A stretch of 64,000 bases of DNA from Thermoleophilia bacterium (GTDB taxonomy: Bacteria > Actinomycetota > Thermoleophilia > RBG-16-64-13). Below, piece after piece: positions 27,362-59,556 of the stretch (positions are counted from its first letter, which is position 1; the number at the start of each line of letters is the position of its first letter). Under the pieces are notes generated by a model, which worked only from the letters and a program-made list of their open reading frames with translations, did not search any database and had not been told where the DNA came from. The translations under genes were made by a program, and so were the position numbers. The stretch spans positions 70,149-134,148 of the forward strand of contig JAXGXJ010000005.1 in the NCBI GenBank assembly GCA_040772905.1, read 5' to 3'.

Positions 27362-27365
27362 AAGA

Positions 27366-27410
27366 TGGTAGCGGGGGCAGGATTTGAACCTGCGACCTTC
27401 GGGTTATGAG
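27366..27410 (-). repeat. 45-bp displaced 3' end of tRNA-fMet, identical to 59480-59524; left attachment-site core of the integrative island
   Basis: TGGTAGCGGGGGCAGGATTTGAACCTGCGACCTTCGGGTTATGAG is identical at both loci. The sequences diverge immediately 3' of it. Confidence 0.8.
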
Positions 27411-29578: not shown

Positions 29579-31741
29579 TCAGGACCCGAAATGCTCCGCC
29601 ACATACTGCAGCGCGTCCTGTGTGTTGAGCAGCCGCGTCGAGTTGTTGAACCTTACGTAGAGATCGGTCTCGATGCCTCTCTTCACGAAGACCGCCGTAC
29701 GGCTGGGTTCGAGGTCGACCCGGCAGACGTCATGGCCCTCGATTGTCTGGAACGTGACGCTCAGATTCGCCAAGGCCGGCTTGCCCACGGCGATCTCAAG
29801 CAGATCAGTCAACCAGTTCTCGAAGCCGTCGCGGCCGCGGCCCTTGACCAGCTTGTAGTCATTCTCGAGGCCGATCGGCTCTCCGTCGTCCTTCACACCG
29901 ATCAGCAGCGTGCCGCCCTCGGCGTTGAGGAAGCCGGCGATCGTCCGCACGATGGTCCGCTCGATCTCTTCGTCTCGGTCGCCCTTCTTGTAGCTCCAGC
30001 GAGCCGACGACTTGAACTCGACTCTCTTCCCCTCCCCCGCCGCTATCAGCTCGACGATGCCGGGGCGTGCCGCTCCGGACGACGGCGCATGGGATCCGTC
30101 TTCAGATTCGCCCGGATGCTCAACATCTGGCAGCTCTGCTTCGCCGTCGGCCGCCTGATGGTCGCCTGGCGCAGCCCCGACCCGCAGTCGCGGGCTGGCA
30201 TACTCGGGGTACTCGCGCTCTTCGGGCGTCAGGACCGTCGTGTCAACGCCACCGTCAACCCCCCGATACACGAAGTCATGCCGAGCAAAGGTGTCATCGA
30301 GGCGCAGGATGTGTTCCCGTACCCGCCGGCGCGATTCCATGGCCAGGGCCAGTAGCTCTTCGATTTCCTCTGCGGTCGCGTCCCCGTGCGGATACAGCAG
30401 CTTCATCAAGCCGGAGAAAGTCTTCTCCAGTCCGGTCTGATCGCGGGTCGATAGCTCCGACACCAGCTCAAAGCGATCGTTGTAGGCGCTCGTGAAGTCC
30501 TCGGTGCGCTGGTGTTTCAGGATCTCGGCCAGATAGTCGACGATGAAGCCGTAGCCACTGGTGAACAGGTCGCTGCTAACGGGCGACACCTCCCACCCGG
30601 GCAGGTAGGCGTGGAGCCGGTCCAGGAACGCCGAGTCGATGTACTTGTCGGGGAGCGGCTCGAAGAAGTGGGAGTGCCGCAGCATATAGGGCATGGGCTT
30701 CTTCGTGTTGCCCATGAAGACCATCGACGCCTCGGCGGTGAGCTGTTCGATGCCCCGCGAGAAAGACTTGTTGGCCATGAAGTTCTTCATGATGTCGACC
30801 AGGTTCTTGTCGACGTTCTTGTCCTTGCCGGCGAATTCATCGAAGCAGATGCAGTCCCAGTAGCCGACGAGCCCGATCTTGCCGGTGGCGTTGTTCACGA
30901 AGAGCTTGGCCACGCTCACCTCGGCCCCGGAGATGAGGATCCCGTGGGGCGAGAACTCGGCGTAGATGTGGGACTTGCCGGTGCCCTTGGGCCCCAGCTC
31001 GATGAGGTTGTAGTTGCGCTCGCAGTAGGGCACTAGCCGCATCAGCTGCAAGAGCTTCCCGCGACGGCTGAACGCATCCGGGTTGAGGCCGATGCTCTGG
31101 AGGAGGACACCCATCCACTCCTCGGTGGAGAAGTTGGCCCGGGCGGCCAGGAACTCCTCGTAGTCGGCCCGTGAGACTTGGATGGGTTTCAGGCTCTCTA
31201 TGTGCCATGGGCAGGCCTTGGGCTCCTCGCTCAGCTCGTAGGCAAGCTCCGTGATGCACCAGATCCCCCCCACCAACAGCTTCGGATGCCGGCGGATGAG
31301 GTCGTCGGCGATGGGGACGTTCTTGAGCCCGAGATTGCTGAACTTGGCTTCGTAGAAGCCGCCCTTGTCGTTCAGCTCGGCGGCCACCTTGTCGATGACC
31401 TTGTGGCTGCCGCGCTCCTTGATAGTCGACTTGACCAGCTCAGCTTGATTGCGGTGGACGTAGTGCTTGGCGAGGATGCGTTGCACCGACTCCAGCCCGG
31501 CCTTAAGAGCATCGAGATCGTCGGTGGCGCAGTGCTGCCCCAGCAGGTATTCGAGCACATAGGTGGGCACCACCGCGTTCTGCTTCAGGCCCTTGGTCAG
31601 GTCCTTGCGCACCACCAACCCGGGGAACTGCTCGAGGATCTTGCGATCCAGCGGCCCCAGCGTCACCGGGGTCGAAACGGCGGCTTCCAGCGGGTCGATG
31701 ATCCTCTCTTCAGGGTTCTCAGACATCGAAATCACTCTCAA
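29579..31741 (-). CDS. brxL: BREX BrxL-like AAA+ protein with C-terminal AlbA_2/Schlafen-like domain in place of the Lon-protease domain
   Basis: N-terminal ~520 aa show BrxL family signatures (LDRKILEQFPGLVVRKDL, VVPTYVLEYLLGQ, ELGPKGTGKSHIY, LVGYWDCICFDEFAGK). After a low-complexity linker the last ~170 aa read EFKSS...IAGFLNAEGGTLLIGVKDDGEPIG, typical of AlbA_2. Confidence 0.65.
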   Translation of the reverse strand: MRVISMSENPEERIIDPLEAAVSTPVTLGPLDRKILEQFPGLVVRKDLTKGLKQNAVVPTYVLEYLLGQHCATDDLDALKAGLESVQRILAKHYVHRNQAELVKSTIKERGSHKVIDKVAAELNDKGGFYEAKFSNLGLKNVPIADDLIRRHPKLLVGGIWCITELAYELSEEPKACPWHIESLKPIQVSRADYEEFLAARANFSTEEWMGVLLQSIGLNPDAFSRRGKLLQLMRLVPYCERNYNLIELGPKGTGKSHIYAEFSPHGILISGAEVSVAKLFVNNATGKIGLVGYWDCICFDEFAGKDKNVDKNLVDIMKNFMANKSFSRGIEQLTAEASMVFMGNTKKPMPYMLRHSHFFEPLPDKYIDSAFLDRLHAYLPGWEVSPVSSDLFTSGYGFIVDYLAEILKHQRTEDFTSAYNDRFELVSELSTRDQTGLEKTFSGLMKLLYPHGDATAEEIEELLALAMESRRRVREHILRLDDTFARHDFVYRGVDGGVDTTVLTPEEREYPEYASPRLRVGAAPGDHQAADGEAELPDVEHPGESEDGSHAPSSGAARPGIVELIAAGEGKRVEFKSSARWSYKKGDRDEEIERTIVRTIAGFLNAEGGTLLIGVKDDGEPIGLENDYKLVKGRGRDGFENWLTDLLEIAVGKPALANLSVTFQTIEGHDVCRVDLEPSRTAVFVKRGIETDLYVRFNNSTRLLNTQDALQYVAEHFGS

Positions 31742-34208
31742 ACGGCTTCTGCAGTTTCACCTTGTGGGTCTTGTAGATGGCGGTCTGGCTGGTGCCGGGG
31801 ATGGTCTCCTCCAAGCGGACCTCGACCTCCTTGCCATTGTAGTCATCGGCGGCCCGGGACAAAGTCAGGCCCACCTTCTTCTCCCGCAGACGCGGCTCCT
31901 CATCGGCCAGGTCGAAGGTGAAGGAGTGGACATCAGAGATGATCTTACCGTCGGACGCGTACACGCCCACCGTCAGGATCCTGGGCAAGGTCTTCTCGGC
32001 CACGGGCTGCAGTTGGTAGAGCGCCAGCGTGAGCTGCCCGGTCGTGATCTTGCTGGGGGCACGGAGAATATCCACCTCCACCCGTTCGGTGTCATCCGAC
32101 CGAGCTTTATGGATGCGTACCACCGGCACCACTACTTCCTGCAGGCTCAGTCCGCCATGCACGTAGCGCTTGCCCGAGCCGCTCAGGGGGAAGCGCCCCA
32201 GCGAGAGCGGGAAGGTCGCCTGCCAGTCCCCGCTCAAGCCCAGGTCGGTCGCGGCGAACGTCTTCAGCGCCGGGTTCTTGGCGATGTTGCGGCCGATAGC
32301 GAAGCGCCGGTTCCTCATGAGCCACTCACCAGCCGCAGGCAGCGGCAGGTCATCGGCTTCGGCAACCTCCGACTGCTGGAAGAGGAAGCCGTGATCGGCG
32401 GTCAGCAGCATGTTGTTGCCGTTGGCGTTGGCGATCTTGCGAAGGATCTGCATGAGCTCCTGCAGTGCCGTCTCCACCGCCTCAGCGGTCTTGGCCTCAG
32501 TAGCCGATGAGTCGCCCACCTTGTCGATGGTGTTATGGAAGATGTAGATGACATCGTGGTCGCGCATGAGCGCGCGCCCCTCGGTCTTGGTGTTCATCTC
32601 GAGGAAGGTCTCTGCCTGGATGGCCGTCGCCCTCCCCCCCACAGCGGCCGCCAGAATCTGTCTGCGTGCCTCGGTTCCGGAGGCCGGTTTGCCGTCCATG
32701 AGCGCGGTTCCGTCGGCCGGCTGGATGGTGCGTTCATTTCCGGGCAGAAGCGAGGCCATGCCCAGTTGTGTGTATGAGGGGAGCGAGGCGAGTACCACCT
32801 CCAGCTGCGCCGTCCAACGGTTCTCGCTCTGGATGCGGGCGACTAACTCCGCCGCTGCCTCGTAGCGCAGGCCGTCAGACACCACCACGAACACCTTCTG
32901 ACCCTTGTCCAGGAAGGGCTTCACGTGTCGCTCGAAGAACGCGGTCTGCGGCACCAGACGATCACCCCGCCAGGTGGTCAAATCGCGCACCCGGTCGCCC
33001 CACCGATCAGCGAGAGGCAGCAGGAAGGTGTTGACATACGCCTTCTCCACCCAATCGGTCACGCACTTGGTCACAGCCACCTGACCATAGCGCCGCTGGT
33101 GATAGCAGAAGCGCCGGTAGGCGTTGTCTATCTGCTGCCAAGTGGCGACGTAGCGGGAGACTCCGGCATCCACGCTGTCCACGTGAAGCTCGGTGGCATC
33201 GAGGAGCTCGCGCAGCCGGATGGCCTGGGTAAGAGCTTCGTAGCCATCTGCGTGGTCGCCGAACCAGAAGGACTTGCGCCGAGCCTCTAACGTCGCCGAG
33301 AGAGCCGCGCTCGCCCCTCCCTTCTCGAAGCTCCCACACGCTCGGTGGATGATGAAGCGTTCGAAGGCGGCGAAGGTATCCGAGTGCTCGATCTGCCGGA
33401 GGTCGTCCAGGGCGTCCAATTGACCACTGATGTGAAGATCCGCCTCCAGTGCGCCGGACCATCGCCGGAAGGCGGGCCCGTGGCTCTGGCTGTCCTTCCA
33501 TCTCTGGAGAAACACGCGCGCATGAAGATCGAGAGAGACCCCCGAATCGAGCGGATTAGCCCACCGGAAAAGCATCGTGGCGAAATCACGGAGGGTCGGC
33601 TTGTCGCTTGCGTATCCGAAACGAAGGCCCACCTCCTTCCAGAAGGCCCCGACCAGGTTGGCCTGTCCGAAACGCTCCTCAACCGGATCGAGCAGGGCAT
33701 CGCCGGCGTCCCGGCTAAGGAAGGCTAGAAGCAGCGAGTCCACATCGGCTTCGGTGCCGGCCAGGACAGCCATCATCTTGAGACGGAGGCTGCGGGCTTC
33801 CTCCGCGGCTGTGAGCATCGGTTTCAGCATTTGGATCTGCTTGGCGTTGAAGAACCCGATATGCTCCTCGATCACGGGACGAAACTCATAGGGCAGACCG
33901 ACGTCCTGGAGGATGAGAGAAGCCCGGTCAGCTTTGAACTCATGGCCTTGGAGGCGCAGGTCGAGAAGCCAGTCCTCCATGTCTCTGGGGCGCTCACTGG
34001 GGAAGTAGAGAAGATACCGCGCGCCGCGGTCGGGATCGCCGTGGATGGCTACCTTGACCGAGAACTCGTCACCCTCGACCCTGAGCTTTGTCACCCCCGC
34101 GCTCTCGAATTCCTCGAAGGCGCTCGACCACTCCCGCTTGGGGTCGTACCAGAACACCAGGCGATGGCGCAGGAACACACGCTCGAGGCTGTCGGCGACG
34201 CGACTCAC
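31719..34208 (-). CDS. pglZ: BREX alkaline-phosphatase-superfamily protein PglZ
   Basis: 829 aa. N-terminal LVFWYDP signature and PglZ domain (VVVSDGLRYE, TADHGF). Confidence 0.85.
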   Translation of the reverse strand: MSRVADSLERVFLRHRLVFWYDPKREWSSAFEEFESAGVTKLRVEGDEFSVKVAIHGDPDRGARYLLYFPSERPRDMEDWLLDLRLQGHEFKADRASLILQDVGLPYEFRPVIEEHIGFFNAKQIQMLKPMLTAAEEARSLRLKMMAVLAGTEADVDSLLLAFLSRDAGDALLDPVEERFGQANLVGAFWKEVGLRFGYASDKPTLRDFATMLFRWANPLDSGVSLDLHARVFLQRWKDSQSHGPAFRRWSGALEADLHISGQLDALDDLRQIEHSDTFAAFERFIIHRACGSFEKGGASAALSATLEARRKSFWFGDHADGYEALTQAIRLRELLDATELHVDSVDAGVSRYVATWQQIDNAYRRFCYHQRRYGQVAVTKCVTDWVEKAYVNTFLLPLADRWGDRVRDLTTWRGDRLVPQTAFFERHVKPFLDKGQKVFVVVSDGLRYEAAAELVARIQSENRWTAQLEVVLASLPSYTQLGMASLLPGNERTIQPADGTALMDGKPASGTEARRQILAAAVGGRATAIQAETFLEMNTKTEGRALMRDHDVIYIFHNTIDKVGDSSATEAKTAEAVETALQELMQILRKIANANGNNMLLTADHGFLFQQSEVAEADDLPLPAAGEWLMRNRRFAIGRNIAKNPALKTFAATDLGLSGDWQATFPLSLGRFPLSGSGKRYVHGGLSLQEVVVPVVRIHKARSDDTERVEVDILRAPSKITTGQLTLALYQLQPVAEKTLPRILTVGVYASDGKIISDVHSFTFDLADEEPRLREKKVGLTLSRAADDYNGKEVEVRLEETIPGTSQTAIYKTHKVKLQKPFESDFDV

Positions 34209-35100
34209 TCGTCAGATTCCTTCGCCGCCAGTCCCGGGATGGGCGCCAGAGCAGGTCCCAGCTTGAGGTAGTTCACCTTGACCCCATCATCCAGGTCCAG
34301 CTCGATACGCTCCTGGGCCAGCGGCAGGAGCACCTCCCTTTCATACTCCTCGCACTCGCGGATGGTCTTGCCGAGCGCGTCGGCTTCTTTGCGATACCGA
34401 GCCTTGTCATGAGGCGAGGTGGACTCGCTGGCCAGGAGGTGCTCCAGGTGCTCCAGGCGATAGTGCATCTTGGAGATGTACTCGCGCAGGTAGCGGTTGA
34501 GCACGCGGTTGGCCGTGTCGCGGGTGTAGCGGTGGAGGTAGACGAGGCACTGGAAGCCCTTCTTGGGACTCTGGAACATCCAGTAGATGGGCCGCTTCTT
34601 GTGAGTCTGGAGATGGTCCTTGTAGAAGTCGGTGGCAAAGTACTTGCGCAGGTCCTTGCCCAATGACTCCTCGATGAAGCGCAGGTTCTCATCCAGGGTC
34701 GAATCCCCAAACGTGACCCGCAGGAAGTTCCGCGTGCGAGCCACGATGTCATCCTCGAACCATTCTCCGCTTAAGACCGGGATGATGGCATCTTCATCGG
34801 GGACAAAGCTGAGCTCATCCAGGGGCCTCCCCACTCTTGCCAGGTAGCCCTCCAGAGTGTCGCCGGCATCGGCCAGGATGAGGCCGGGCTTATCCAGGGA
34901 GTAGCGGCCCATCATGCAACCCACGGCGTGGGAGAGGAATCCAGCGATGTCCTTACGTCTGTCGGGACGAGCCAGGGTGATCTCCTCTTCCGGGACCTCA
35001 GGAGTGAGCTCATCCTGAAGGCCATAGGCTTCGATCCACAGGCGGTTGTTCTCCGTCTCTAGCTGCTGCATACGGGCAATGTTGTCCCTGTCGTTGCCGA
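34205..35100 (-). pseudogene. pglX: BREX methyltransferase PglX, C-terminal fragment (gene split by IS21 insertion)
   Basis: Contains the PglX C-terminal signature KRPIYWMFQSPKKGFQCLVYLHRYTRDT. Overlaps the pglZ start by 4 bp. Upstream coding continuity is broken at the IS21 left IR (35101). Confidence 0.75.
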
Positions 35101-35199
35101 TGTGAAACTGACCCATTAGTGCCGGTCTGAAACTGACCCACCTTGAAATGACGTAGGCTTCTCGGTTGGTTCTCTTGGAATCTGCCGAGGAGGGGTCAG

Positions 35200-36192
35200 T
35201 TGATCAAACTGGAGGAATGGGTGGACATCGTTTCCCTTCATAGGCAGGGTCTTTCTATTCGCGCGATCGCTCGCAGACTGGGCGTCTCCCGCAACACGGT
35301 ACGAGCCGCGCTTCGTCGGCCGGGTCCGCCGACGAGAGCCCCACAACAGCGGCCGCCGTCCAAGCTGGATCCCTATCGGGACTATCTCCTGGCCCGGCTG
35401 GCCGAGTTCCCGGAACTGCCGGCGGAAGCGCTCTTCGAGGAGATCCAGGCTCTCGGCTATTCCGGCGGCCGCACCATCCTCAAGGAGTTCACCCGGCCTT
35501 ATCGCATCCGCAGGAAAGAGCCAGTGGTGCGCTTTGAGACCCCGCCCGGCCGCCAGGCCCAGTGTGACTGGGCTCACCTCGGCACTCACGTCATCCGCGG
35601 CGAGCTCACAGCGCTCTATCTCTTCGTGATGATCCTCGGCTTCTCCCGGGTCCTCTATGCCGAAGTGGTCACCCGCACCGACATCGACACGTTCCTGGAA
35701 CTCCACGTGCACGCCTTCCGCGCCTTCGGGGGCATGCCCGAGGAGATCCTCTATGACAACCAGAAGGTGGTGGTGCTCAGCCGCTCATCTGACGGCCCGG
35801 TCTTTCATCCCGCTCTTCTTGCCTTCGCTGGCCAGTTCGGCTTCAAGCCGCGCCTCTGCCGGCCCTATCGGGCCCGCACCAAGGGGAAGGTGGAGCGCTC
35901 CATCGGCTATATCCGGGACCGCTTCTTCTGTGGAAGGACGTTCATCGATATCCCCGATCTCAACCACCAGCTCGCGATGTGGCTTGAGACCGCCAACGCC
36001 CGGGAGCATAAGACCACCGGTGAACGGCCCTGTGATCGGCTGCTCAGGGAGAAGCTCCTGCCCTTCGCCGCCGCCCGGCCCTGGCGGGGTTCAGAGGCGC
36101 CGATCGTGCCTCCCCGGCGCCCCTCCTTCCGTTTCGCCTCTCCCGAGGTCGAGCGGCGTTCTCTCTCGGTCTATGAGGAGGTGTGCTCGTGA
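35200..36192 (+). CDS. istA: IS21-family transposase IstA
   Basis: 330 aa. N-terminal HTH (LSIRAIARRLGVSRNTVR), rve core (CDWAHLG...YDNQKVVV...KGKVERS). TTG start after GAGGAGGGG. Confidence 0.8.
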   Translation: MIKLEEWVDIVSLHRQGLSIRAIARRLGVSRNTVRAALRRPGPPTRAPQQRPPSKLDPYRDYLLARLAEFPELPAEALFEEIQALGYSGGRTILKEFTRPYRIRRKEPVVRFETPPGRQAQCDWAHLGTHVIRGELTALYLFVMILGFSRVLYAEVVTRTDIDTFLELHVHAFRAFGGMPEEILYDNQKVVVLSRSSDGPVFHPALLAFAGQFGFKPRLCRPYRARTKGKVERSIGYIRDRFFCGRTFIDIPDLNHQLAMWLETANAREHKTTGERPCDRLLREKLLPFAAARPWRGSEAPIVPPRRPSFRFASPEVERRSLSVYEEVCS

Positions 36193-36974
36193 ACCTGGAG
36201 ATGGAGCGCATCGCACTTCTCGCCGACCGGCTGCACCTGCCCCAGCTCACCGCCAGCCTGCCGCTTCTGGCCGAGGAGGCCGCCCGCAAAGAGCAGAGCT
36301 ACAGCGAGTTTCTGCTGGGGCTCTTGGAAGAGGAGGTCCGGGCCGCGGACGTCCGAGCCCAGGAGATGATGCTCAGGCTCGCGTCGTTCCCCTTCCGGCG
36401 CACCCTCGATGACTTCGACTTCTCCTTTCAGCCCTCGGTCAGCAAAAAGCAGCTCAGGGAGCTTGCGAGTTGCGCCTATGTGGAGCGGGCGGAGAACGTC
36501 ATCCTCCTCGGGCCGCCGGGCGTGGGCAAGACGCACCTGGCCGTCGCTCTCGGCCTCGCTGCCATCCACAAGCGCCTGCACGTGAAGTTCACCACCGTGG
36601 CCGCCATGGTCGCCAACCTCACCCAGGCGCTGAAGGCCGGCACCTATCCCGCCCGGCTTCGCACCTATCTTCGGCCCAGCGTCCTCATTCTTGATGAGAT
36701 CGGCTTTCTTCCTCTGGAAGCGGGGCAGGCCAGTCTGCTCTTCGAAGTCATCTCCCGCCGATACGAGCGCGGCTCCATCATCCTCACCTCGAACAAGAGC
36801 TATGCCGAATGGGCAGAGATCTTCTCCGGCGACGAGGTGATCGCCACAGCCATGCTCGACCGGCTCCTTCACCACGCGACCACCATCATCATCAAGGGCC
36901 AGAGCTACCGGCTCAAAGACAAACAGCGGGCCGGCCTGGTTGCTCGAAGAAAGGGGAACGAGGCAAGCGAATGA
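36183..36974 (+). CDS. istB: IS21-family helper ATPase IstB
   Basis: 263 aa. Walker A GPPGVGKTHLAVALG, Walker B LILDEIGF. Overlaps the istA stop. Confidence 0.85.
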   Translation: MLVNLEMERIALLADRLHLPQLTASLPLLAEEAARKEQSYSEFLLGLLEEEVRAADVRAQEMMLRLASFPFRRTLDDFDFSFQPSVSKKQLRELASCAYVERAENVILLGPPGVGKTHLAVALGLAAIHKRLHVKFTTVAAMVANLTQALKAGTYPARLRTYLRPSVLILDEIGFLPLEAGQASLLFEVISRRYERGSIILTSNKSYAEWAEIFSGDEVIATAMLDRLLHHATTIIIKGQSYRLKDKQRAGLVARRKGNEASE

Positions 36975-37055
36975 CGCAAAGGGGGTCAGATTTCGATCGG
37001 CACTGAACCTTAGGGTGGGTCAGTTTCAGACCGGCAGAAAAGGGTCAACTACACA

Positions 37056-39689
37056 CCGGCATTGACAGTCCCGGAGGTAGCGCTCCCATTTCTGCCACGA
37101 TGCTTCTAGCGTAGGCCCTTTGAGTTCGGGGCGCAGGAGAGGGAGGTCTTGGAAGTCCCAGGAGGTCTCGAAGTTATTCCAATCGGTGCGGGCGAGGGAG
37201 GTCAAGGAACGGGCGAGGGCCGAAGTCCCCTTGGCCACGTGGGCCAGGGGAATCTTCGCAACGTCTCCAGGTACGTAGTTCATTGTTGGAGCCAGAGCGC
37301 CCAGACAGGCTCGTGCCACGACGGAGTTGAGAACCAACAGGATCAGTTCAAGATTCTCCTCGCAGAACATTGACGAACCACCTGAACTGAAGAGAAAGCC
37401 AGGCGGCGTATGACGGAAACTCGCGGGCCCAGTCGTGACAGAGCTCCAAGTAATATTGGGTTTGAAGTAGTATTCCTCGCTCCGTATCTCCTTCGTGTAG
37501 CTTCCTCCGCCGTATCGGGCGACGATGAATGATTTCAGCTCTTTGCCATCATCTTTCCAGTTGATCAGCGTCTCGTTGAGCCCAAACCACCTTCGGTTGC
37601 CGCCGCCCTTGTTGAGAGGGAACCATTTTCCAGGGGACTCGCGGCTCATGTTGCGGCCGGCGACGCCGAATTCCGTGCTGCTCCATCCGACCTCAAACCA
37701 AAGTCGGACAAAGCTTGCGTCGTCCAGTGTAACTAGCCCTTTTCGCACGACAGCGGCACTCGCGAGGGGCGGGAATCCTTCAAAGGCAGCGACGAGCGCG
37801 GGACCGCACCAGTAGGCGACCGGACTCCCGGGAATCTTGTCCATGTCTCTGGCCGCAATATCAAACCGGAGGCCCCCTCCTGACGCGTTGGCCAACCTGA
37901 AGAGACCTTCTTTGGCTGCCTCGCTGTCGCCGTCGACCAAGCGGAAGTAGCGGCCGCGCCCGTTCCGCAAGGACCCTTTGAACGCGACGAACGCAGTCGC
38001 CTGGACTACCTCACCGCCAATAGTGTCGAACGCGCGTGGGCCCAGATGCGCCATGGTTACGATGAACTTCGACGAGAGCAACTGCCGTCGCAATGCTTCA
38101 TAGCTCGAGAGAAACATCCAGTTCTGCATAGTGATTAGGGCGAAATAGGCGTTATCACGAGCCAGAGTGGCGCATCGTTCGATGAACATGGCGAACAGGT
38201 CGGATTTCGAGTCGGGGAACCTCTCAGAACTGAAGCGGCGAACACAGTCGTTCATCGCCCCACCCCCCAGATACGGCGGGTTGGTAACCACCACGTGGTA
38301 GCGCTGGGTGAGCATCTCCGCTTGGGTGAGGGCGAGGAGAACCTTGCGCTGGGTCTCTGCAAGGAGGAGGTCAGCGGGAGCGGGAGCGTTCGCTATTTCG
38401 GTCTTGAGCTGGATGATCTCCGGCTCAGTGAGGATGGGCTGGACGAGCGAGCCGAAGGTGGAGGTGTTCTCCCGGAACTGATAGACCTGTTGGAGGACCT
38501 TAGCGGTGAAGAGACGGGTGAGGCCGCTTGAGCTGAGCCAGGCCTTGAGCTCCTCAGCCTCGAAGGGAACGTCTTCCAGGCACACGACTTGCGGTTGGAT
38601 CGCTCCCCGGAAGGCGTTTCTCGACTTCTCCCGAGCTTTGGCGAGGAGAGCGAACTGGGCGAGCTGGGTAGCCCGAGGGCAGATCTCCAGGCCATAGAGG
38701 TTGTGGGTGAGGATCTTTGTAGGGATATCGGCGGGGGCGTAGCCCTCCTCCTCATAGATCTGATAGAGAAGGTCGAAGGCGTAGGTGAGCATGTGCCCGG
38801 AGCCGCAGGCGGGGTCGAGAAGCCGGATGTCTTCTGGACGCTCAACGGTGAGGGAGTCAGCCGGAGCTTGCCCGTCCGGGTCTTCGACATAGTACGGCAT
38901 GGAGGCGCGAAGAGATGAGCGGGGACGGGAGCGAAGCCACAGCCGCCCCAGGGAGTTCTCGACGAGATAGCGCACGATCCAGTGCGGGGTGAAGAGCTGG
39001 GTGACGGCGGGGATGTCCTCGCTGGGGACGGCCGTCTTGCGGGCCATCACCTGGTCTTTCTTCTCGGAGATGTAGAACTGATAGAGCCAGCCGAGGATCT
39101 CCACCTCAGCGCAGTCCTCGTCAGTGATCTCGCTCCGGAAACCGTGGGCCACGGAGTGGTCGGTGAGGAGGTCATCGGGAAGAAGGAGTTCGGTCTCGTC
39201 ATCGAGGCGCTCAAAGAGAAGGGGCAAGAGCGCGTGGTAGTAGCGGCAGGCGGCGAGCACCAGGTGGCGATAGACCTCGCCCTGGGGATCGGACGAAGGC
39301 AGGCGGCCATCGAGAAGATCTCCGAGCCGAGCGGGATCGGTATAGGGCCTCAGCTGATCGGGGATAACCTCGGTCCGAACCAGACGCAGAATCTCAGGCT
39401 GGGTCTCGGAAGCCGAAGCGGGCGTGACGATCCGCACCCGGAAAGGGTGCCAGCCGCGGGCGTCTAGGAATCGCAGGGCCGCCAGGCGGTTGAACCAAGT
39501 GTAGGCGACTCGCTCGATGAGCTGAGAGCGGTTCTGTACGGACTGGGCCCGGAGGCGCTCCACCTGTGCCGACGCAGCCCGCAGATCGGGTGTGTCGGCA
39601 GTGAGGACGTAGTCAAGCTTGCGTTCGACGGCCTCCAGCAGGTCGCGGCGGGCCTGTTGGGCGAAGGGCTTGAGGGAGGAGGTATCCAT
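37056..39689 (-). pseudogene. pglX: BREX methyltransferase PglX, N-terminal ~870-aa fragment (split by IS21)
   Basis: N-terminal hallmark VAYTWFNRLAALRFLDARGW, then an N6-adenine methyltransferase core (VVTNPPYLGGG). The reading frame runs into the IS21 right IR and stops at 37026. Confidence 0.75.
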
Positions 39690-39694
39690 GGCGC

Positions 39695-42600
39695 TCAGAG
39701 TGTGACCTTGTTGCCTTTGGCAAGCTCAACCGCGATGACCGACCGGAGTGCATCCAGCCAGCGCTCCAGTTCCGCTTCGGTCGAAATGAACGCCAAGTCC
39801 AAGTGCGGCTTCAGGCTTGTCACGGGAACATACCGGACTGGAGGCGGAGGCGGTTCATCCTCCGGCGTCTCTGGTGTTGTCAGAGCAGCCACGAGCGCAA
39901 GCTGGGCAGGGTACTCCTCGGAGAGATAGCGCGCGAGCCGGTTGCGGACTCCGCTGATGTATTCCTCCGCATCTATCGCCTCGCGAGCCGCGGCGGATTT
40001 CTGCATCACCTGCGCCTGCTGAGTGTCGCTGAGCTGCGAGTGTTCCGGCAGGGCTCTGATCTTCGCCTCGCATTCCGCGATGGCGGTCAGTGCCTTGTGA
40101 CACTCGTCGGTGAGCAGGGCATCGATGAGACGCTTCACATCCGCCATAGCCACTCTAGCCTTGGGCAGCAGCTCGCCTCGATAGGGGGCACCCGATTCCG
40201 CGACGGCCCTCAGAGGCTCGAGATTCTCCGGCGGGACGTCTCCGAAGTTCGCCCTCTCGGTCGCCAGGAAGGTGATGACCTCGTCATAGGCGATGCGCTG
40301 CTTGCCGTGCATGAAGCCCTTGATAGGAGCGATGGTCTCCTGCTTGGCCGTGAGCAGCTCTTGGGAGAACTCATCCAGCTGGTTGAGGAGATACGGGTAG
40401 TCCTTCTGAGAAATGGCTTTGAGCCGGTTCTTCACGGGCTCTAGGTCGCTCAGGAACGGGTACGTCGCCTTCTGATCGAGCAGCAATTCCAGGTCACGCG
40501 CCTCGCACGCAAGCGCCTCCAGGGTCAGCTGGGCGACCGACCGGGCATCGGTCCCGTCGTTCGGGCGATCAAAGAAGTCGTGATGGAAGTTCTTGAGCGC
40601 CGCGACCACCTCGGGCGGCCACTGCTCCTGCAGACTGATGCGCACCGTTCCATGATGCTTGGAGTTCCGAAATGCGTCGAAAGCCCCTTGCGCATCGAGC
40701 AGCTCCGCCTGCCTGAGTTCCAGCTTCCCCATGCGGAATAGCCGAGCTACTTGCACGAGAACACCCATGACAGGCCAGCCGTACGGCCGCTTCCCGAAGT
40801 CGCGCACCATCTCCTCGACGGTGACCCGTTCCTTGTCCGTCTTCTGAGTGCGAAGCACGTTCGTGAGGACCTCTTGTTCAGCCTCGGAGAGCGTGTGCCC
40901 GCCGCCGGCCATGAGATCGTCGGGGTCGAGCAGGGTCTTTCTTAATTGCTCTTCGTTGTAGGTGCCCCTGAGCATCCGCAGGCTGGGGTAGGCGAACGAG
41001 ATCAGCTCCTGGCCGGCCTTCTGGAAGCGCGTCCGTGCTTCACCCTCCCCAATGTCGGTGAGCTTCGAGCCGTTCAGGTAGAGGACGGCTTTCCCCATAA
41101 GATCCTCGCAACGCTTCTGCAGCTCGCTCCTGTTGGTGCTGTTCTGCTGACTGCGGCGATCGAGGATCTCGCGACGGGTGGAATCGAAGTGCGTCCCCGG
41201 GTTCTGCTGGATGTACTTGCGCGTCTTGATGAACAGACGAGCGTCGTCTATCACGCGAGCATCAGCGGGCAGCACGGCCAGGAGTTCAGCCTTACCCGTA
41301 TTCTGCGCCGCCAGCGTGTACAGATCGCCGTGATGGGGATGGTCGGCGGTGATCACATTGACGGAGAGCTCCGCATCCTTGCCCACCAGGTGGTCGTCCA
41401 GGCGACGGGCGTAGGAGTAGTCCTGGCCGTTCACGTCGTAGCGGATCTTGGGGTCGCGCAGGATGTCGGCGAAGAAGATGTCGGACAGGAGCTTGGTCTG
41501 CTCGGACTCGTCGATCTCCGTGCCCTTGATCTCTGTCTCGATGTCCTTCTCGGTGTCGGTCAGGAACTCGTAGAGCTCGCCGTTCCGCTGCAGGTAGGAC
41601 TGCTGCTCGAGGAGGTTGAGGGCCTCCCGCACCGCCTTCTCGTGAGCCTGCATGTTGATGTCCGGCCGGTCGATCAGCAGGATGGCCACGTTTCGCGGAC
41701 TGGGCTTAAACGATGTGACCCATTTGAGCAAGAAGAGCGCCTTGAGGATGCGGGCAGCGAGCGGATCGTCCAGGTGATCCTCCGCCTGTTGTACGGAGGT
41801 CTGCATGTCGCCGCGGATGGTCGCCGACATGCCGTCGAACATCTTGTCGAAGGTGGCCAGACCACCCACGTCCTGTCCACTCAGATATACGACCACATCT
41901 TGAAACACCTCGAGCATCGACCGCTCGCCCACAGACGTCTGCCTGCCGGTGAACGCATCGTGGCGAGAGAGCTGCTCAATGGCCCGCTGGAAGAGGTCGA
42001 ACTGATAGGGGACGAAGGGGTAGTAACTGCAGAACTCATCGCTCCCACGCCAGGTTCGGTAGGGCATCGAGCCATCGCCGAACCGATACATGGTCTGCAG
42101 GTTCTCCTTCTCCCTGTCGTAGACGCTGGTGAGAGCCTCGGGCTCCGCTTCAGTCTTGGCCAGCAGGCGCCTCTGGATGACCTCGCGCACGTCGGCGCTC
42201 GTAAGATTCACGCGGCTCTTGAAGCGCCCCTGGATCTTGGTGAAGTCGTCACCCTCTCCCCTGCGCAGCTCTCCCAGGACGTTCTTGAGATCGCCCTGGG
42301 AGGTGACGAACACCCAGGCCCTGCCCTGGCAGATGGTGGCCAATGACTCGGCAATGGTCTGCAGGTTGAGCATGAGCCGAGAGTCCTGACCGATGAACTG
42401 CCCCACCTCGTCGGCGAAGAAGTTGAGGCGGAAGTCCGGCCCCTGTCTGTCGATGTAAGCCTTCACCCGCCTGGCGAAGTCCTCGGGCGAGACCTTGTAA
42501 CCCTCACGCTGCCGATCGAAGAGCTTCAGGCCCTCGTCGTACGATTTGCCGAAGAACTCAGCGTAGACCTTGGCGAACGTCTCGTTCTCCAGGGTCTCCA

Positions 42601-43191
42601 GCACCGGCAGGTCCTGTTCCCAACTCCGACCGCTCACCGCCGCGTAGGTCTGCTTGAAGGCCTCAAGCTCGCCTCGAGAGTCAAGGTCGTACTCGAACTG
42701 GGCGATGTGACCCTGCTTGGCGTAGTAGCCCTGGAGCTCGTTGAGGACCTTGACGAACACCTCGAGTACGGCCGACTCGCGATCGCCACCGATGGCATCG
42801 GACTTCTGGTCGATGTTGAAGAGGATGCTGCGCGAGGGAATCTTGATGGCCTTCTGGAGATCCGCCCGCAGGAACTCGTCGTCGAGCTTGGGTATGAGGA
42901 TGTCGGCGGCCTGAGCTCCGCTGGGCAGCGTCCGGTTCTCCAGCACCAGCGAGAGGATCGCGAGGAGGTGCGACTTTCCGGAGCCGAAGAAGCCCAGCGA
43001 GATCGAACTCCGTTGGCCTTCGTCCTCTCCTGGCTCACGTACTGCTCCATGAGGGCAGTTAGACCCTTCGAGATCTCCCCGGTGACGACGCCATTCCTCG
43101 ACCTCGTTTTCGAGATTGCGATCGTCATCGGCTTTGATGACCCCTTCGATGGACGGTAGCCAGGTTTACTGAACAGGTCACGTATCTTCAT
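39695..43191 (-). pseudogene. brxC: BREX P-loop ATPase BrxC with three apparent frameshifts in the first ~180 nt
   Basis: ATG at 43191 gives MKIRDLFSKP. Expected continuation PSIEGVIKADDDRNLENEVEEW is in another frame. VVTGEISKGLTALMEQYVSQERTKANGV is back in the first frame. ISLGFFGSGKSHLL... and the remaining 1080 aa are again in the second frame. Confidence 0.65.
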
Positions 43192-43198
43192 GGGCCCC

Positions 43199-43795
43199 TC
43201 ACGGTCGATAGTGAGCCAGATTGAACGCGCGGTAGTACGGGCGATAGAGCGGCGGCGTGGCCTGCGATCCGAAGAGCCTGAGCACGGAGGCACCATTCTC
43301 TTCCTGCCTGTACTCCCCGGGAAAGAACATCACGACAGGCCGCTTGACCATCGCGGGCTGGAGCGACTCCAAGATGGTGTGGGTGCGCAGGAACGGGAAC
43401 ACCCTGCCCACACCTAGCAGTAGCGCCAGCTGTACGCCGTCGTCCCCTACCTTCTTCATGAGCCGGGGGATGAGCCGGGTCTTCGGGTCGGCCAGGTTGG
43501 ACATCATGTCAAGGAGCTTCTGCTTGCCGATGGAGCGCTCCTTCTCCAGGATCGGCTGAAGTCGGCCCTCCTCCTCTAGTTGCTCGAGGATGAGATCGAA
43601 GAGGTCCACCACGGCCACCGAAACGCCGTGAGTGCGAAGCCGCGTGGCCAGGTGGTCGATCATGATCCGCACCTTGTCCTCGTCCTGAGGCTCGTAGGTC
43701 TCGATGAAGATGGGGACCTCGTTCGCGAGTCCCTTCATGGACAGGAAGTGCGGATGGCTGAGAATGCGGAACAGGCGCTCGCTCTGGTCAGCCAC
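43199..43795 (-). CDS. brxB: BREX protein BrxB (DUF1788 family)
   Basis: 198 aa; position between brxA and brxC and family-like pattern (NEVPIFIETYEPQDE...VAVVDLFDLILEQL). Confidence 0.65.
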   Translation of the reverse strand: MADQSERLFRILSHPHFLSMKGLANEVPIFIETYEPQDEDKVRIMIDHLATRLRTHGVSVAVVDLFDLILEQLEEEGRLQPILEKERSIGKQKLLDMMSNLADPKTRLIPRLMKKVGDDGVQLALLLGVGRVFPFLRTHTILESLQPAMVKRPVVMFFPGEYRQEENGASVLRLFGSQATPPLYRPYYRAFNLAHYRP

Positions 43796-43797
43796 CG

Positions 43798-44442
43798 TTA
43801 AGCCCCTATCCTGCCGATTTCGTCATCGGGAATGAGAAACCCCGCGAGCCAGCACCGATCCTCGGCAATGATGGCCGAGCGGACCTCCGGGGGGAGCAGA
43901 GCCCGACGCAAGTCGAAGTCCTTCGGACCCTCACCCAGGATGCCGACCTCGCGGAGCATCCTGAAGAGCACCTGGCGGATCTTGGCTTTCGTGCTGGCTG
44001 TCAACTCCTGCACCTCGGGATGGGCCAGGCCCTCCGTCGCCAGGAAGTCCTCGTAATCCGAGGGCCGGAGCACCCGGTCATGGCCCTCCATCTTGGCACG
44101 AAGCGATTCGGAGGCGAAGGCATAGATGAACGGATTCAGCTTGAGCACCGACAGCCACGCGATGGCCCTGCGGGCGTCTGCCGAGCCTTGAGCGAGGATC
44201 TCCAACTGCCCACGCGAGAGTGTCTGCAGGCGCTGACGCACCTCCCGCTCCATACGCACACCACTTGCCGGATTCTTCGCTTGCAGCAGATTCTCAGACA
44301 GCGCTCGCCGGCGGGTCTCGTCCCAGTCACCGGACTCGAGGTACAACTCAGCGACGATCCGGGCCAGTTCTGGACGCAGCGAGGCGGCCGTGAAGGCCAG
44401 CGAGTACTTCTGGGTGCCGCAAGAATTAGGAAGCATCCGCAC
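43798..44442 (-). CDS. brxA: BREX protein BrxA (DUF1819 family)
   Basis: 214 aa; first gene of the cluster; KYSLAFTAASL...IVAELYLESGDWDE pattern typical of BrxA. Confidence 0.65.
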   Translation of the reverse strand: MRMLPNSCGTQKYSLAFTAASLRPELARIVAELYLESGDWDETRRRALSENLLQAKNPASGVRMEREVRQRLQTLSRGQLEILAQGSADARRAIAWLSVLKLNPFIYAFASESLRAKMEGHDRVLRPSDYEDFLATEGLAHPEVQELTASTKAKIRQVLFRMLREVGILGEGPKDFDLRRALLPPEVRSAIIAEDRCWLAGFLIPDDEIGRIGA

Positions 44443-44616
44443 CCCGCGCGTTGGCAGTGTTCACCCGTATCCTACTCAGGCGAGACTAGACGGTGAGTCT
44501 CCTCCCCTTGCCTCAGATATCGGCGACTTGTGCCTTATGGTACAACGTTGGTCGGACAGACGGGAGGCTGACCTCAACCAGCACTGTGCGGATGCACAGG
44601 ATGTCCGGCTGCCTGG

Positions 44617-45052
44617 GCCGGAGGACCCATGAGGGACTCGGGTGACTAGCGGCCAGTATCCATCCGGCATGCTCCGGTACGCGGCAACTGAGCACGGCGC
44701 ATCGCTGCCTCCAGGCTGATCGTCCAAATGCCTCTCCGCGTGCACAGAAGGTACCTTCCTGGAGGTCAGGCGTACGCGACAGGCATTGGCTTGCCCGAGC
44801 CGATCCGCGGAGACGACGGTGGCGACCACGGTCTTCGCCGCCTCCGCCTTGCGCGCCGGAACCGAGCAGAACTTCCGGGGACCCGCGCCGGAGGACCCGT
44901 CAGATGCTCGGGCAACTAGCTCCCCGTACTGGGGCTCCGGTAGTCCCCTGGTCCCGTAGGTGACCCGGCCCGTGCTCAGACGAGGCGCTGCGTTGCAGAT
45001 ATCGCGTCCGAATACCTCTCCGCGTGCACGGAAGGTATCGTCCTGAAGTCAG
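44617..45052. repeat. two imperfect ~160-bp direct repeats (44617-44770 and 44887-45052) in a 750-bp ORF-free region
   Basis: Shared blocks GCCGGAGGACCC-N-T-N-AG...CTCGGG-NN-ACTAGC, CTCCGGTA, and (A/T)CCTCTCCGCGTGCAC(A/G)GAAGGTA(C/T)C-N-TCCTG(G/A)AGGTCAG. The region lies between the brxA start and the prim-pol gene end. Confidence 0.6.
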
Positions 45053-59476: not shown

Positions 59477-59479
59477 AGA

Positions 59480-59556
<77 letters not shown>

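What the first reader, a model, noticed from the sequence alone, without database searches (positions are those of the whole stretch)
29579..44442. Type-1 BREX locus that appears inactivated (pglX split by IS21, brxC 5' end frameshifted)
Gene order brxA-brxB-brxC-pglX-pglZ-brxL is canonical type-1 BREX. pglX is cut into 37056-39689 and 34205-35100 by a 1955-bp IS21-family element with perfect 42-bp inverted repeats. The first ~180 nt of brxC need three frame changes to give the expected N-terminus before the Walker A motif. The system is probably non-functional, though pglZ and brxL remain intact.
Basis: partly seen in the sequence, partly recalled or inferred. Interest (0 to 1): 0.5.

Follow-up and report, generated by a model that had tools for sequence, protein, structure and literature searches.

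The report
IS-broken type 1 BREX defence locus
This is an ordinary six-gene BREX anti-phage system on a mobile island; a jumping gene inserted in its methylase gene has switched it off, and a tight cluster of reading-frame errors at the start of its ATPase gene probably has too.

Summary
The finding is essentially right, but some details are wrong.

**The locus.** Window 29579-44442 (minus strand) carries a canonical type 1 BREX operon: brxA-brxB-brxC-pglX-pglZ-brxL. Curated models confirm each gene.

**The pglX break is certain.**
- pglX is split by one intact IS21-family element, istA plus istB.
- The element spans 35089-37067 (1979 bp). It has TG...CA ends, imperfect 54-nt inverted repeats (45/54) and a 5-bp target duplication, GTCCC.
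- Removing 35089-37072 restores an 1166-aa PglX. The repaired junction is colinear with the uninterrupted pglX of the closest relative, L087 (85-87% nt identity).

**The brxC frameshifts are in the sequence, but may not be real.**
- The brxC 5' end carries frame-breaking indels at about 43151 (-1), 43092 (+1) and 42999 (+2).
- Three intact relatives show none of these.
- They are the only frame-breaking indels across the BREX genes, apart from the IS.
- As assembled, no ORF joins a start codon to the Walker A motif.
- Whether they are real mutations or a local assembly artefact cannot be settled without reads.

**Everything else is intact.** brxA, brxB, pglZ and brxL are full length.

**Context and side note.** The locus sits in a roughly 32-kb defence island at tRNA-Met. 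Separately, BrxL carries a Schlafen/AlbA_2 C-terminus in place of the Lon-like domain.

The parts
43798..44442 (-). brxA (214 aa from GTG 44442; ATG at 44436 is an alternative start)
   Evidence: Pfam BrxA PF08849, E=1.9e-42. 85.5% aa identity, full length, to L087 BrxA.
43199..43795 (-). brxB (198 aa)
   Evidence: Pfam BrxB PF08747, E=3.4e-29. 92.9% aa identity, full length, to L087 BrxB.
39695..43191 (-). brxC, frameshifted as assembled. ATG at 43191. The body ORF (stop to stop 39695-43165) has its first canonical start at GTG 42946.
   Evidence: The body carries BrxC 4th, wHTH and helical domains. After three repairs the 1165-aa product matches NF033441 BrxC end to end at 1023 bits. The truncated 1083-aa product is in the protein collection from an NCBI contig of 420,686 bp (P0001).
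42995..43155 (-). Indel cluster at the brxC 5' end: -1 at ~43151-43154, +1 at 43092, in-frame +3 at ~43021-43027, net +2 at ~42999
   Evidence: DNA alignments to three intact relatives, L087, L081 and L082. These are the only internal indels in 4.75 kb of brxA-brxC aligned to L087.
42968..42994 (-). Walker A (P-loop) codons GFFGSGKSH of BrxC. They are out of frame with ATG 43191 and lie upstream of the first in-frame start at 42946.
   Evidence: Read directly from the sequence and its translations. Conserved in all relatives.
37068..39689 (-). pglX N-terminal fragment, residues 1-~873, including the methyltransferase domain with NPPY. The ORF runs on into the IS to a stop at 37026.
   Evidence: NF033452 BREX-1 PglX model positions 1-918 at 884 bits. 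Eco57I/N6_Mtase domains.
35089..37067 (+). IS21-family insertion sequence, 1979 bp, 5'-TGTC...GACA-3' ends, opposite in orientation to the BREX operon
   Evidence: Removing it plus one GTCCC copy restores an 1166-aa PglX. The repaired junction is colinear with L087. Single copy in the window.
35089..35142 (.). Left terminal inverted repeat, 54 nt, holding two copies of a ~21-nt TGCCG..TGAAACTGACCC motif
   Evidence: 45/54 complementary to the right end.
37014..37067 (.). Right terminal inverted repeat, 54 nt. Three copies of the ~20-nt motif lie at 36983-37061.
35200..36192 (+). istA, the IS21-family DDE transposase (330 aa), intact
   Evidence: NF033546, 300 bits against a cut-off of 160, profile 3-286/294. 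HTH and rve domains. Relatives are 326-340 aa.
36183..36974 (+). istB, the helper AAA+ ATPase (263 aa), intact
   Evidence: PF01695, E=7.7e-87. NF038214, 276 bits against a cut-off of 200.
35084..35088 (.). Target-site duplication GTCCC, left copy
37068..37072 (.). Target-site duplication GTCCC, right copy
34205..35088 (-). pglX C-terminal fragment, residues ~873-1166
   Evidence: NF033452 model positions 919-1208 at 361 bits. The reconstructed PglX aligns over residues 43-1160 to solved BrxX/PglX structures 9EWZ, 8ZEK and 8C45.
31719..34208 (-). pglZ (829 aa), intact
   Evidence: TIGR02687 BREX-1 PglZ type A, 675 bits against a cut-off of 270. 90.6% identity with no gaps to the 829-aa L087 PglZ.
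29579..31741 (-). brxL (720 aa; probable ATG at 31726 gives 715 aa), intact. N-terminal and MCM-like ATPase domains, with a C-terminal Schlafen/AlbA_2 domain instead of the Lon-like domain.
   Evidence: PF20442, PF13337 and PF04326. TIGR02688 passes; TIGR02653 is below cut-off and matches only positions 4-485/675. PADLOC BrxL matches only positions 4-496/698. L087 BrxL has the same architecture.
27363..27410 (.). Distal copy of the island attachment repeat: 48 bp identical to the 3' part of tRNA-Met, with extended similarity from 27323
59477..59524 (.). Proximal attachment repeat inside tRNA-Met (gene 59480-59556, minus strand)

Best explanation
A type 1 BREX phage-exclusion operon (brxA-brxB-brxC-pglX-pglZ-brxL) sits inside a roughly 32-kb integrative defence island at tRNA-Met. 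It has been knocked out.

**Shown**
- A complete, apparently active IS21-family element (istA plus istB, 1979 bp) transposed into codon ~873 of the 1166-codon pglX. It made a 5-bp target duplication.
- This separates the methyltransferase and recognition part of PglX from its last ~294 residues.
- As assembled, the brxC 5' end has three frame-breaking indels within about 153 nt. The start codon and the Walker A P-loop cannot be translated together, and the only long ORF begins after the P-loop.

**Inferred**
- PglX is the BREX methyltransferase and specificity subunit. The BrxC N-terminal ATPase is needed for methylation and restriction. The locus should therefore neither methylate its motif nor exclude phage.
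- The intact, conserved brxA, brxB, pglZ and brxL, the identical target duplications and the intact IS genes all indicate recent inactivation.
- The conserved peptide is still readable in each brxC segment, so those indels, if real, are also recent.
For: - **Family assignments.** Pfam, NCBIfam and PADLOC hits are all far above curated cut-offs.
- **pglX split.** The fragments match BREX-1 PglX model positions 1-918 and 919-1208.
- **IS boundaries.** Deleting 35089-37072 restores one 1166-aa ORF, while three other boundary choices do not.
- **Empty site.** L087 (GCA_964528375.1) has an uninterrupted brxA-brxL operon at 85-87% nt identity. Its pglX is colinear across the empty site, WERCLKTNIARMQ against WERYLRDNIARMQ.
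- **brxC indels.** L087, L081 and L082 all keep one frame through the brxC start. The window deviates at 43151, 43092, 43021 and 42999 and nowhere else in 4.75 kb.
- **Recent events.** In their native frames the segments stay close to P0121, for example IEGVIKADDDRNLENEVEE against IDGVIKADDDRNLETEVEE.
- **Other genes intact.** The other BREX proteins are full length against L087.
- **Assembly quality.** No other frameshifted genes were seen in the 64 kb by ORF and GC3 tiling, apart from the normal IS3 orfA/orfB pair.
- **Gene requirements.** The BrxC N-terminus is needed for modification, and BrxC, PglX and PglZ are the principal modification components (PMC9009780). Five core components are needed for self-modification (PMC12839542).
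Against: - No reads, methylome or phenotype are available, so loss of function is inferred.
- The brxC indels are so tightly clustered that neutral decay does not explain them (P of about 5e-4 under a uniform model). A local consensus or assembly error remains possible.
- No second copy of this strain was found to compare. The exact-protein look-ups failed, and a metagenome scan for the strain's brxC 5' sequence found nothing.
- An in-frame ATG at 35116 inside the IS end could in principle express the PglX C-fragment. It has no Shine-Dalgarno-like sequence (my reading).
Confidence: 0.85

Rival explanations
1. Only pglX is really broken. The three brxC frameshifts are a local consensus or assembly artefact, for example mixed strains or a coverage dip in a long-read assembly, and the true brxC is intact.
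For: - Four indels fall within about 153 nt, and none in the remaining ~3.3 kb of brxC or in brxA and brxB when aligned to L087.
- Every segment still encodes the conserved peptide in its native frame.
- The site-3 change looks like a local rearrangement of the same bases: GTCTGGATCTCGGGC against GTTCGATCTCGCTGGGC.
- The contig is long (420,686 bp) and runs through several IS elements. This hints at long-read data; that inference is mine.
Against: - The other ~55 kb of coding sequence shows no frameshifts. It includes ORFs of 1146, 995, 942, 830, 725 and 676 codons, so the overall consensus accuracy is high.
- None of the three sites lies in a homopolymer of three or more bases, apart from the GGG beside site 3. 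Two of the sites are multi-base changes.
- The locus is already dead through the IS, so further real lesions are plausible.
Confidence: 0.35
2. The brxC lesions are real and were selected. After pglX was lost, or before, the remaining BREX proteins were costly or toxic, so brxC knock-outs were favoured. The -1/+1 pair records a frameshift and its nearby suppressor, meaning the system was toggled off, on and off again.
For: - The -1 at ~43151 and +1 at 43092 compensate each other when read from ATG 43191. The +1 and +2 also sum to +3.
- Suppressors of frameshifts must lie close by, which would explain the clustering (established genetics).
- In Salmonella StySA BREX, a pglX deletion could not be recovered in three backgrounds. 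A lab strain also carried multiple clustered mutations in brxC and pglZ, and the authors discuss toxic states (PMC9009780).
Against: - The scrambled stretch between the paired sites covers strongly conserved motifs, so a 'suppressed' protein may not have worked.
- The third hit still has to fall within the same 150 nt by chance.
- No population data and no repeats or tracts suggest programmed switching.
- Relatives show no such feature.
Confidence: 0.12
3. The locus still works in part: the PglX N- and C-fragments are made separately and reassemble, or a P-loop-less BrxC starting at GTG 42946 supports some activity.
For: - ATG 35116 in the IS end is in frame with the C-fragment (ORF 34205-35116).
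- A 1083-aa BrxC ORF remains.
- pglZ and brxL are intact.
Against: - I see no ribosome-binding site before ATG 35116 (my reading).
- The IS lies antisense to the operon and separates the downstream genes from the operon promoter.
- The BrxC N-terminal region is required for modification (PMC9009780).
- No split PglX turned up in what I read; this was not a systematic search.
Confidence: 0.04

Closest known systems
Type 1 BREX (E. coli HS, Salmonella StySA and Acinetobacter systems; solved BrxX/PglX structures 9EWZ, 8ZEK, 8C45)
   Same: - The same six genes in the same order.
- PglX, PglZ type A, BrxC and BrxL (N-terminal and ATPase part) pass the curated BREX-1 models.
- The reconstructed PglX aligns over residues 43-1160 to solved BrxX chains at E of about 1e-221 to 1e-223.
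   Different: - pglX is interrupted by an IS.
- The brxC 5' end is frameshifted.
- BrxL lacks the Lon-like C-terminal domain and carries a Schlafen/AlbA_2 domain instead.
- No BrxR/WYL regulator was identified next to brxA.
L087, the intact orthologous BREX locus in NCBI assembly GCA_964528375.1 (contig CAZGTF010000028.1)
   Same: - 85-87% nt identity over brxA-brxC and over the pglX 3' end through brxL.
- The same gene order and the same BrxL-AlbA_2 architecture.
- PglZ is 829 aa in both.
   Different: - L087 has no IS and a single-frame 1163-aa BrxC.
- The centre of pglX (window ~37200-38266) does not align at DNA level, and PglX is only 68% identical overall. The likely cause is a different target-recognition region.
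- The flanking genes differ.
IS21 family insertion sequences (IS21, IS408/IS1162, ISSme2 and relatives)
   Same: - istA (HTH plus DDE) followed by an overlapping istB (AAA+ helper).
- TG...CA termini and several repeated sub-terminal motifs.
- A 5-bp target duplication.
   Different: - It is a compact member: 1979 bp with a 330-aa IstA.
- It has no close DNA relative among 72,556 plasmid records; only the istB core aligns, at 64-69%.
- The nearest IstA proteins come from metagenomes, at 81-94%.
Naturally or historically disabled BREX loci, such as Salmonella ER3625 StySA with clustered brxC and pglZ mutations
   Same: A BREX locus silenced by lesions in core genes while the other genes stay intact (PMC9009780).
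   Different: - Here the lesions are an IS21 insertion in pglX plus 5' frameshifts in brxC.
- In ER3625, pglX was wild type, and the mutations lay in the C-terminal domains of BrxC and PglZ.

Membership tests
BREX type 1 | Six-gene set brxA, brxB, brxC, pglX, pglZ, brxL, co-oriented and in that order | tested here: met
   ORF map and Pfam/NCBIfam hits. Related loci L082 and L087 have the same order.
BREX type 1 | PglX: BREX-1 N6-adenine methyltransferase with an NPPY motif | tested here: met
   NF033452: the N fragment scores 884 bits against a cut-off of 500. The C fragment (361 bits) covers the rest of the model. TNPPY is present in the reconstructed protein. Full-length match to solved BrxX. 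The gene is interrupted, so it is a pseudogene.
BREX type 1 | PglZ alkaline-phosphatase-fold protein of type A | tested here: met
   TIGR02687, 675.5 bits against a cut-off of 270. PF08665, E=4e-53.
BREX type 1 | BrxC: large P-loop ATPase with an N-terminal Walker A in frame | tested here: inconclusive
   After three frame repairs the protein matches NF033441 end to end at 1023 bits. As assembled, Walker A (42994-42968) is not in frame with any canonical start.
BREX type 1 | BrxL: N-terminal DNA-binding region plus MCM-like AAA+ ATPase | tested here: met
   PF20442 and PF13337. TIGR02688, 576 bits against a cut-off of 329.
BREX type 1 | BrxL C-terminal Lon-protease-like domain (classical form) | tested here: not met
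   TIGR02653 scores 569.5 against a cut-off of 628 and matches positions 4-485/675 only. PADLOC BrxL matches positions 4-496/698. Residues 570-705 hit PF04326 AlbA_2. The literature already accepts variable BrxL C-termini, LonP or HKD (PMC12839542), so this does not exclude type 1.
BREX type 1 | Function: motif-specific m6A self-methylation and phage exclusion | not testable with these tools
   This needs a methylome and phage assays. Gene integrity predicts that both are absent.
IS21 family | istA (DDE transposase) followed by istB (AAA+ helper) | tested here: met
   NF033546 at 300 bits against 160, and NF038214 at 276 bits against 200. PF00665 and PF01695. The two genes overlap by 10 nt.
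IS21 family | Terminal inverted repeats ending 5'-TG...CA-3', with repeated sub-terminal motifs | tested here: met
   The ends read TGTC...GACA. The inverted repeats are 54 nt with 45/54 matching. Two motif copies lie at the left end and three at the right.
IS21 family | Short target-site duplication (4-8 bp) | tested here: met
   GTCCC at 35084-35088 and 37068-37072. Removing the IS plus one copy restores the ORF and matches the empty site in L087.
tRNA-integrated genomic (defence) island | Direct repeats, one of them inside the 3' end of a tRNA gene, flanking the element | tested here: met
   A 48-bp perfect repeat at 27363-27410 and 59477-59524, extending to about 88 bp imperfect. tRNA-Met lies at 59480-59556.
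tRNA-integrated genomic (defence) island | Tyrosine integrase next to an attachment site | tested here: not met
   An integrase is present at 48923-50095. It lies about 9 kb from the tRNA-side repeat and about 21 kb from the distal one. The island may be composite.

The most novel reading that the evidence does not exclude
The three frame-breaking indels packed into about 153 nt at the brxC start would be real. They would record serial selection on BrxC: a knock-out, a nearby compensating frameshift, then a second knock-out. The driver would be the cost or toxicity of the remaining BREX proteins once PglX was lost to the IS. That would be a natural example of second-site silencing of a defence system, matching the laboratory observation that pglX deletions are hard to obtain in Salmonella BREX.
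Probability: 0.1. Interest if true: 0.5.

Novelty: new member of a known kind. Interest (0 to 1): 0.2.

Why it matters
Mostly this matters for annotation.
- The locus should be called a type 1 BREX pseudo-operon, with pglX::IS21-family and brxC frameshifted. It should not be counted as an active defence system in this genome.
- It gives exact boundaries for a compact IS21-family element, supported by a clean empty-site comparison.
- If the brxC lesions prove real, the locus would be a small natural data point on how costly defence systems are shed, and on possible toxicity of BREX without PglX.
- The BrxL-Schlafen/AlbA_2 fusion seen here and in a few relatives may be a third C-terminal variant of BrxL, beside the Lon-like and HKD forms. 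It deserves a separate look.

Tried and rejected
35101-37055, and two other choices, leave pglX out of frame.
- **'Perfect 42-bp' inverted repeats.** Rejected: only about 33 of those 42 positions pair, by my count from the ends shown.
- **Independent copies of the same strain.**
  - Exact look-ups of BrxB (two start variants) and of the truncated BrxC found nothing on record.
  - The 90% BrxC cluster holds only the window's protein and P0121.
  - A metagenome scan for a strain-specific brxC 5' 23-mer found nothing.
  - A scan for the IS inner repeat found only an unrelated element end, L088.
- **Source species.** The genome-contig scan did not find it; the best PglX match was 60%.
- **Genome-wide sequencing error.** Rejected as a sufficient explanation. 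ORF and GC3 tiling of the 64 kb shows no other broken genes apart from the normal IS3 orfA/orfB pair.
- **Homopolymer slippage.** Not supported. The contexts have runs of two bases or fewer, apart from a GGG next to site 3, and two sites are multi-base changes.
- **A diverged recombination patch at the brxC 5' end.** Not supported. Identity to L087 there is 85-86%, dropping to 76% only where the indels disturb the alignment. That is similar to the neighbouring sequence.
- **A second copy of the IS in the window.** None.
- **A close IS relative in plasmids.** None.
- **Promoter/terminator and Rfam scans.** The promoter/terminator scan covered only 42800-45200 (brxC start to upstream of brxA); it found one weak plus-strand promoter-like site and no terminator. 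The whole-window Rfam scan found only the tRNA.
- **Goldfarb 2015 BREX paper.** Not held in the library. I make no claim from it.
Full report
**1. What is there**

Six co-oriented genes fill window 29579-44442 on the minus strand. Pfam assigns them as follows:

| Gene | Coordinates | Pfam evidence |
|---|---|---|
| brxA | 43798-44442 | BrxA |
| brxB | 43199-43795 | BrxB |
| brxC (body) | 39695-42946 | BrxC 4th, wHTH and helical domains |
| pglX (N part) | 37026-39689 | Eco57I / N6_Mtase / MmeI methyltransferase |
| pglZ | 31719-34208 | PglZ |
| brxL | 29579-31741 | BrxL_N plus BrxL_ATPase |

The curated NCBIfam models make this specifically type 1:
- The BREX-1 PglX model NF033452 is covered at positions 1-918 by ORF 37026-39689 and at positions 919-1208 by ORF 34205-35116.
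- PglZ type A (TIGR02687) scores 675 bits against a cut-off of 270.
- BrxL (TIGR02688) scores 576 bits against a cut-off of 329.
- BrxC (NF033441) scores 1023 bits on the frame-repaired protein.

**2. The insertion in pglX**

Two plus-strand ORFs lie between the two pglX pieces:
- IstA, 35200-36192, 330 aa. It has HTH and rve domains and scores 300 bits on NF033546 against a cut-off of 160.
- IstB, 36183-36974, 263 aa. It matches PF01695 at E=7.7e-87 and scores 276 bits on NF038214 against a cut-off of 200.

- Deleting 35101-37055 leaves pglX out of frame. Deleting 35089-37072 gives one 3501-nt ORF of 1166 codons.
- The element is therefore 35089-37067, 1979 bp. Its ends read 5'-TGTC...GACA-3', and GTCCC flanks it at 35084-35088 and 37068-37072.
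- The terminal inverted repeats are 54 nt with 45/54 matching, and only the inner 23 nt are perfect.
- They contain a repeated ~20-nt motif, TGCCG..TGAAACTGACCC, twice on the left and three times on the right. This layout is typical of IS21-family ends (family knowledge).

An independent check comes from the closest intact relative.
- L087 is NCBI assembly GCA_964528375.1, contig CAZGTF010000028.1. I found it through the 90% BrxC cluster.
- It carries brxA-brxB-brxC-pglX-pglZ-brxL with no IS, at 85-87% nt identity.
- Its pglX runs straight through the site. L087 reads ...WERCLKTNIARMQELETENN..., and the repaired window reads ...WERYLRDNIARMQQLETENN..., with no gap.

Other properties of the element and of PglX:
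- A 330-aa IstA is the normal length in this subfamily, where relatives are 326-340 aa. Both IS genes look intact.
- The element is single-copy in the window.
- It has no close DNA relative among the plasmid records.
- The reconstructed PglX aligns over residues 43-1160 to solved BrxX/PglX structures 9EWZ, 8ZEK and 8C45.

**3. The brxC 5' end**

The brxC start codon is ATG 43191, and homologues begin with the same MKI(R/H)(D/E)LF. Reading on from it, the conserved N-terminus switches frame three times:

| Segment | Peptide | Frame |
|---|---|---|
| 1 | MKIRDLFSKPGYRP | 0 |
| 2 | IEGVIKADDDRNLENEVEE | 2 |
| 3 | VVTGEISKGLTALMEQYVSQERTKANGV | 0 |
| 4 | ISLGFFGSGKSHLL... | 2 |

DNA alignments to three intact relatives place the changes. 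The relatives are L087, whose BrxC falls in the same 90% cluster; L081 (BrxC 81% aa identity); and L082 (76%).
- -1 at ~43151-43154: the third base of a Pro codon is lost.
- +1 at 43092: TAC in the relatives against TGGC here.
- An in-frame +3 at ~43021-43027, in a stretch that also varies in length between the relatives.
- A net +2 at ~42999: GTCTGGATCTCGGGC against GTTCGATCTCGCTGGGC.

Consequences and pattern:
- In 4.75 kb of brxA-brxB-brxC aligned to L087, these are the only internal indels.
- Walker A (GFFGSGKSH, 42994-42968) is out of frame with the ATG. The first canonical start in its own frame is GTG 42946, downstream of it.
- The truncated 1083-aa product is what the protein collection records for the source, an NCBI contig of 420,686 bp (P0001).
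- Three frame-breaking indels within about 153 nt of about 11.8 kb of aligned BREX coding DNA has P of about 5e-4 under a uniform model. This is my calculation, 3(d/L)^2. Simple neutral decay after the IS hit therefore does not explain the pattern.

**4. Real lesions or artefact?**

Points against a general quality problem:
- The rest of the window has long uninterrupted ORFs of 1146, 995, 942, 830, 725 and 676 codons.
- There are no same-strand frame breaks other than the normal IS3 orfA/orfB pair.
- The sites are not in long homopolymers, and two of them are multi-base changes.

Points that keep a local artefact alive:
- The clustering is extreme.
- Each segment still encodes a near-perfect conserved peptide in its native frame.
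- Site 3 looks like a local reshuffle of the same bases.

I could not find a second assembly of this strain. I put about 60-65% on the lesions being real and about 35% on a local assembly error.

A compensating-frameshift history is possible but speculative. The -1 and +1 cancel when read from the ATG, and the +1 and +2 sum to +3. This would explain why at least two of the sites lie close together.

**5. Functional reading**

- BREX type 1 needs PglX as its methyltransferase and specificity subunit.
- In Salmonella StySA, the BrxC N-terminal region and complete PglZ are required for modification, and restriction additionally needs the BrxC C-terminus and BrxL (PMC9009780).
- With pglX cut at residue ~873 of 1166, the system should neither methylate nor restrict. 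This holds whether or not the brxC lesions are real.
- The IS lies antisense to the operon.
- An ATG at 35116 inside the IS end is in frame with the pglX C-fragment. I see no ribosome-binding site, so I treat it as chance.
- brxA, brxB, pglZ and brxL are full length and 85-93% identical to their L087 orthologues, with no frame problems.
- The IS genes and target duplications are undamaged, so inactivation is recent.

**6. Context**

- A 48-bp perfect direct repeat (27363-27410 and 59477-59524) extends to about 88 bp of imperfect similarity that includes a hairpin. It duplicates the 3' part of tRNA-Met at 59480-59556.
- The BREX locus therefore lies in a roughly 32-kb island.
- The island also holds:
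  - a tyrosine integrase (48923-50095) and an HTH protein;
  - a DUF3631 protein;
  - an Mrr-like PDC-S02 nuclease right after brxL (28523-29539);
  - a T5orf172 / PDC-S57 protein (53087-53725);
  - a DS-11 CBS anti-phage protein (58032-59072).
- Several other transposase genes, or fragments of them, pile up just outside the distal repeat at 22.1-27.2 kb: IS3-like, an IstA C-terminal fragment, IS4-like and IS481-like.
- Related BREX loci L082 and L087 also sit beside integrase, excisionase-like and primase-like genes. This BREX lineage travels on integrative elements.

**7. Comparison and novelty**

- This is a new sequence-level member of type 1 BREX. The nearest intact BrxC falls in the same 90% cluster, and the next are 81% and 76%.
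- It has been hit by a new but typical compact IS21-family element.
- Defence loci broken by IS elements or frameshifts are commonplace, and a disabled BREX with clustered brxC and pglZ mutations is documented (PMC9009780).
- Two features are less ordinary:
  - the tight brxC indel cluster, which is unexplained and possibly an artefact;
  - the BrxL C-terminus.

On the BrxL C-terminus:
- The Lon-like domain is absent. TIGR02653 falls below its cut-off and matches only positions 4-485 of 675. PADLOC BrxL profiles match only positions 4-496 of 698.
- Residues 570-705 hit Schlafen/AlbA_2 PF04326.
- L087 shares this architecture. AlbA_2-like sequence directly follows the BrxL ATPase in L029, L047 and L056, giving 4 of 59 related loci that have a BrxL hit.
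- Several metagenomic C-terminal fragments of this domain are labelled 'ATP-dependent Lon protease' by JGI. This is consistent with more such fusions.
- In the passages I read, the 2026 BREX survey describes Lon-like or HKD C-termini for BrxL. It mentions Schlafen RNases only as separate BREX-linked proteins.
- I did not pursue this further.

**8. Verdict**

- Observation: partly confirmed. The core is right; the IS size, boundaries and repeats are wrong.
- Interpretation: supported.
- The finding is an ordinary, recently inactivated type 1 BREX locus.
- Interest is low, with a modest upside if the brxC lesions are real and selected.

Noticed in passing
window 29579-31741 (-), BrxL residues ~570-705; also L087 18853-19356, L029 17590-18042, L047 10017-10493, L056 20351-20800: BrxL lacks the Lon-like C-terminal domain and carries a Schlafen/AlbA_2 (PF04326) domain after a low-complexity linker. 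The closest relative and three Anaerolineae-type MAG loci share this architecture. The passages I read in the 2026 BREX survey list only Lon-like or HKD C-termini for BrxL.
   Followed up: partly
window 27323-27410 and 59439-59524; tRNA-Met 59480-59556 (-): A 48-bp perfect repeat (about 88 bp imperfect) duplicates the tRNA-Met 3' part plus a hairpin that shows compensatory changes. It bounds a roughly 32-kb island that carries BREX. The integrase (48923-50095) is not adjacent to either repeat, so the island may be composite.
   Followed up: partly
window 28523-29539 (-), 53087-53725 (-), 58032-59072 (-): The same island carries further defence candidates: an Mrr-like PDC-S02 nuclease directly downstream of brxL, a T5orf172/PDC-S57 protein, and a CBS-domain DS-11 anti-phage protein (NF053863, 376 bits).
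   Followed up: partly
window 22116-27243: Transposase genes pile up just outside the distal island repeat: IS3-like orfA/orfB (22116-23308), an IstA C-terminal fragment (23594-24223, Mu-transpos_C_2), an IS4-like DDE_Tnp_1 (24417-26132) and an IS481-like gene (26221-27222).
   Followed up: no
window ~37200-38266 (pglX centre): This stretch of pglX does not align at DNA level to L087, although both flanks are 85-87% identical, and PglX is only 68% identical overall. This looks like a swapped target-recognition region, meaning a different methylation motif.
   Followed up: no
window 35114-35116 (ATG on the minus strand, inside the IS left end): An ATG within the IS terminal repeat is in frame with the pglX C-terminal fragment (ORF 34205-35116). 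No Shine-Dalgarno-like sequence lies upstream, so this is probably chance.
   Followed up: partly
window 17832-20900 (-): A single 1022-aa ORF combines a branched-chain amino-acid permease domain with two ABC ATPase domains, a LivM-LivG-LivF-like fusion. I did not check whether this fusion is normal for the lineage.
   Followed up: no
L002, L027 and other related loci: In several related BREX loci, brxC ends 1-2 kb before pglX starts. This implies one or more extra genes inserted between brxC and pglX, which the window and L087 lack.
   Followed up: no
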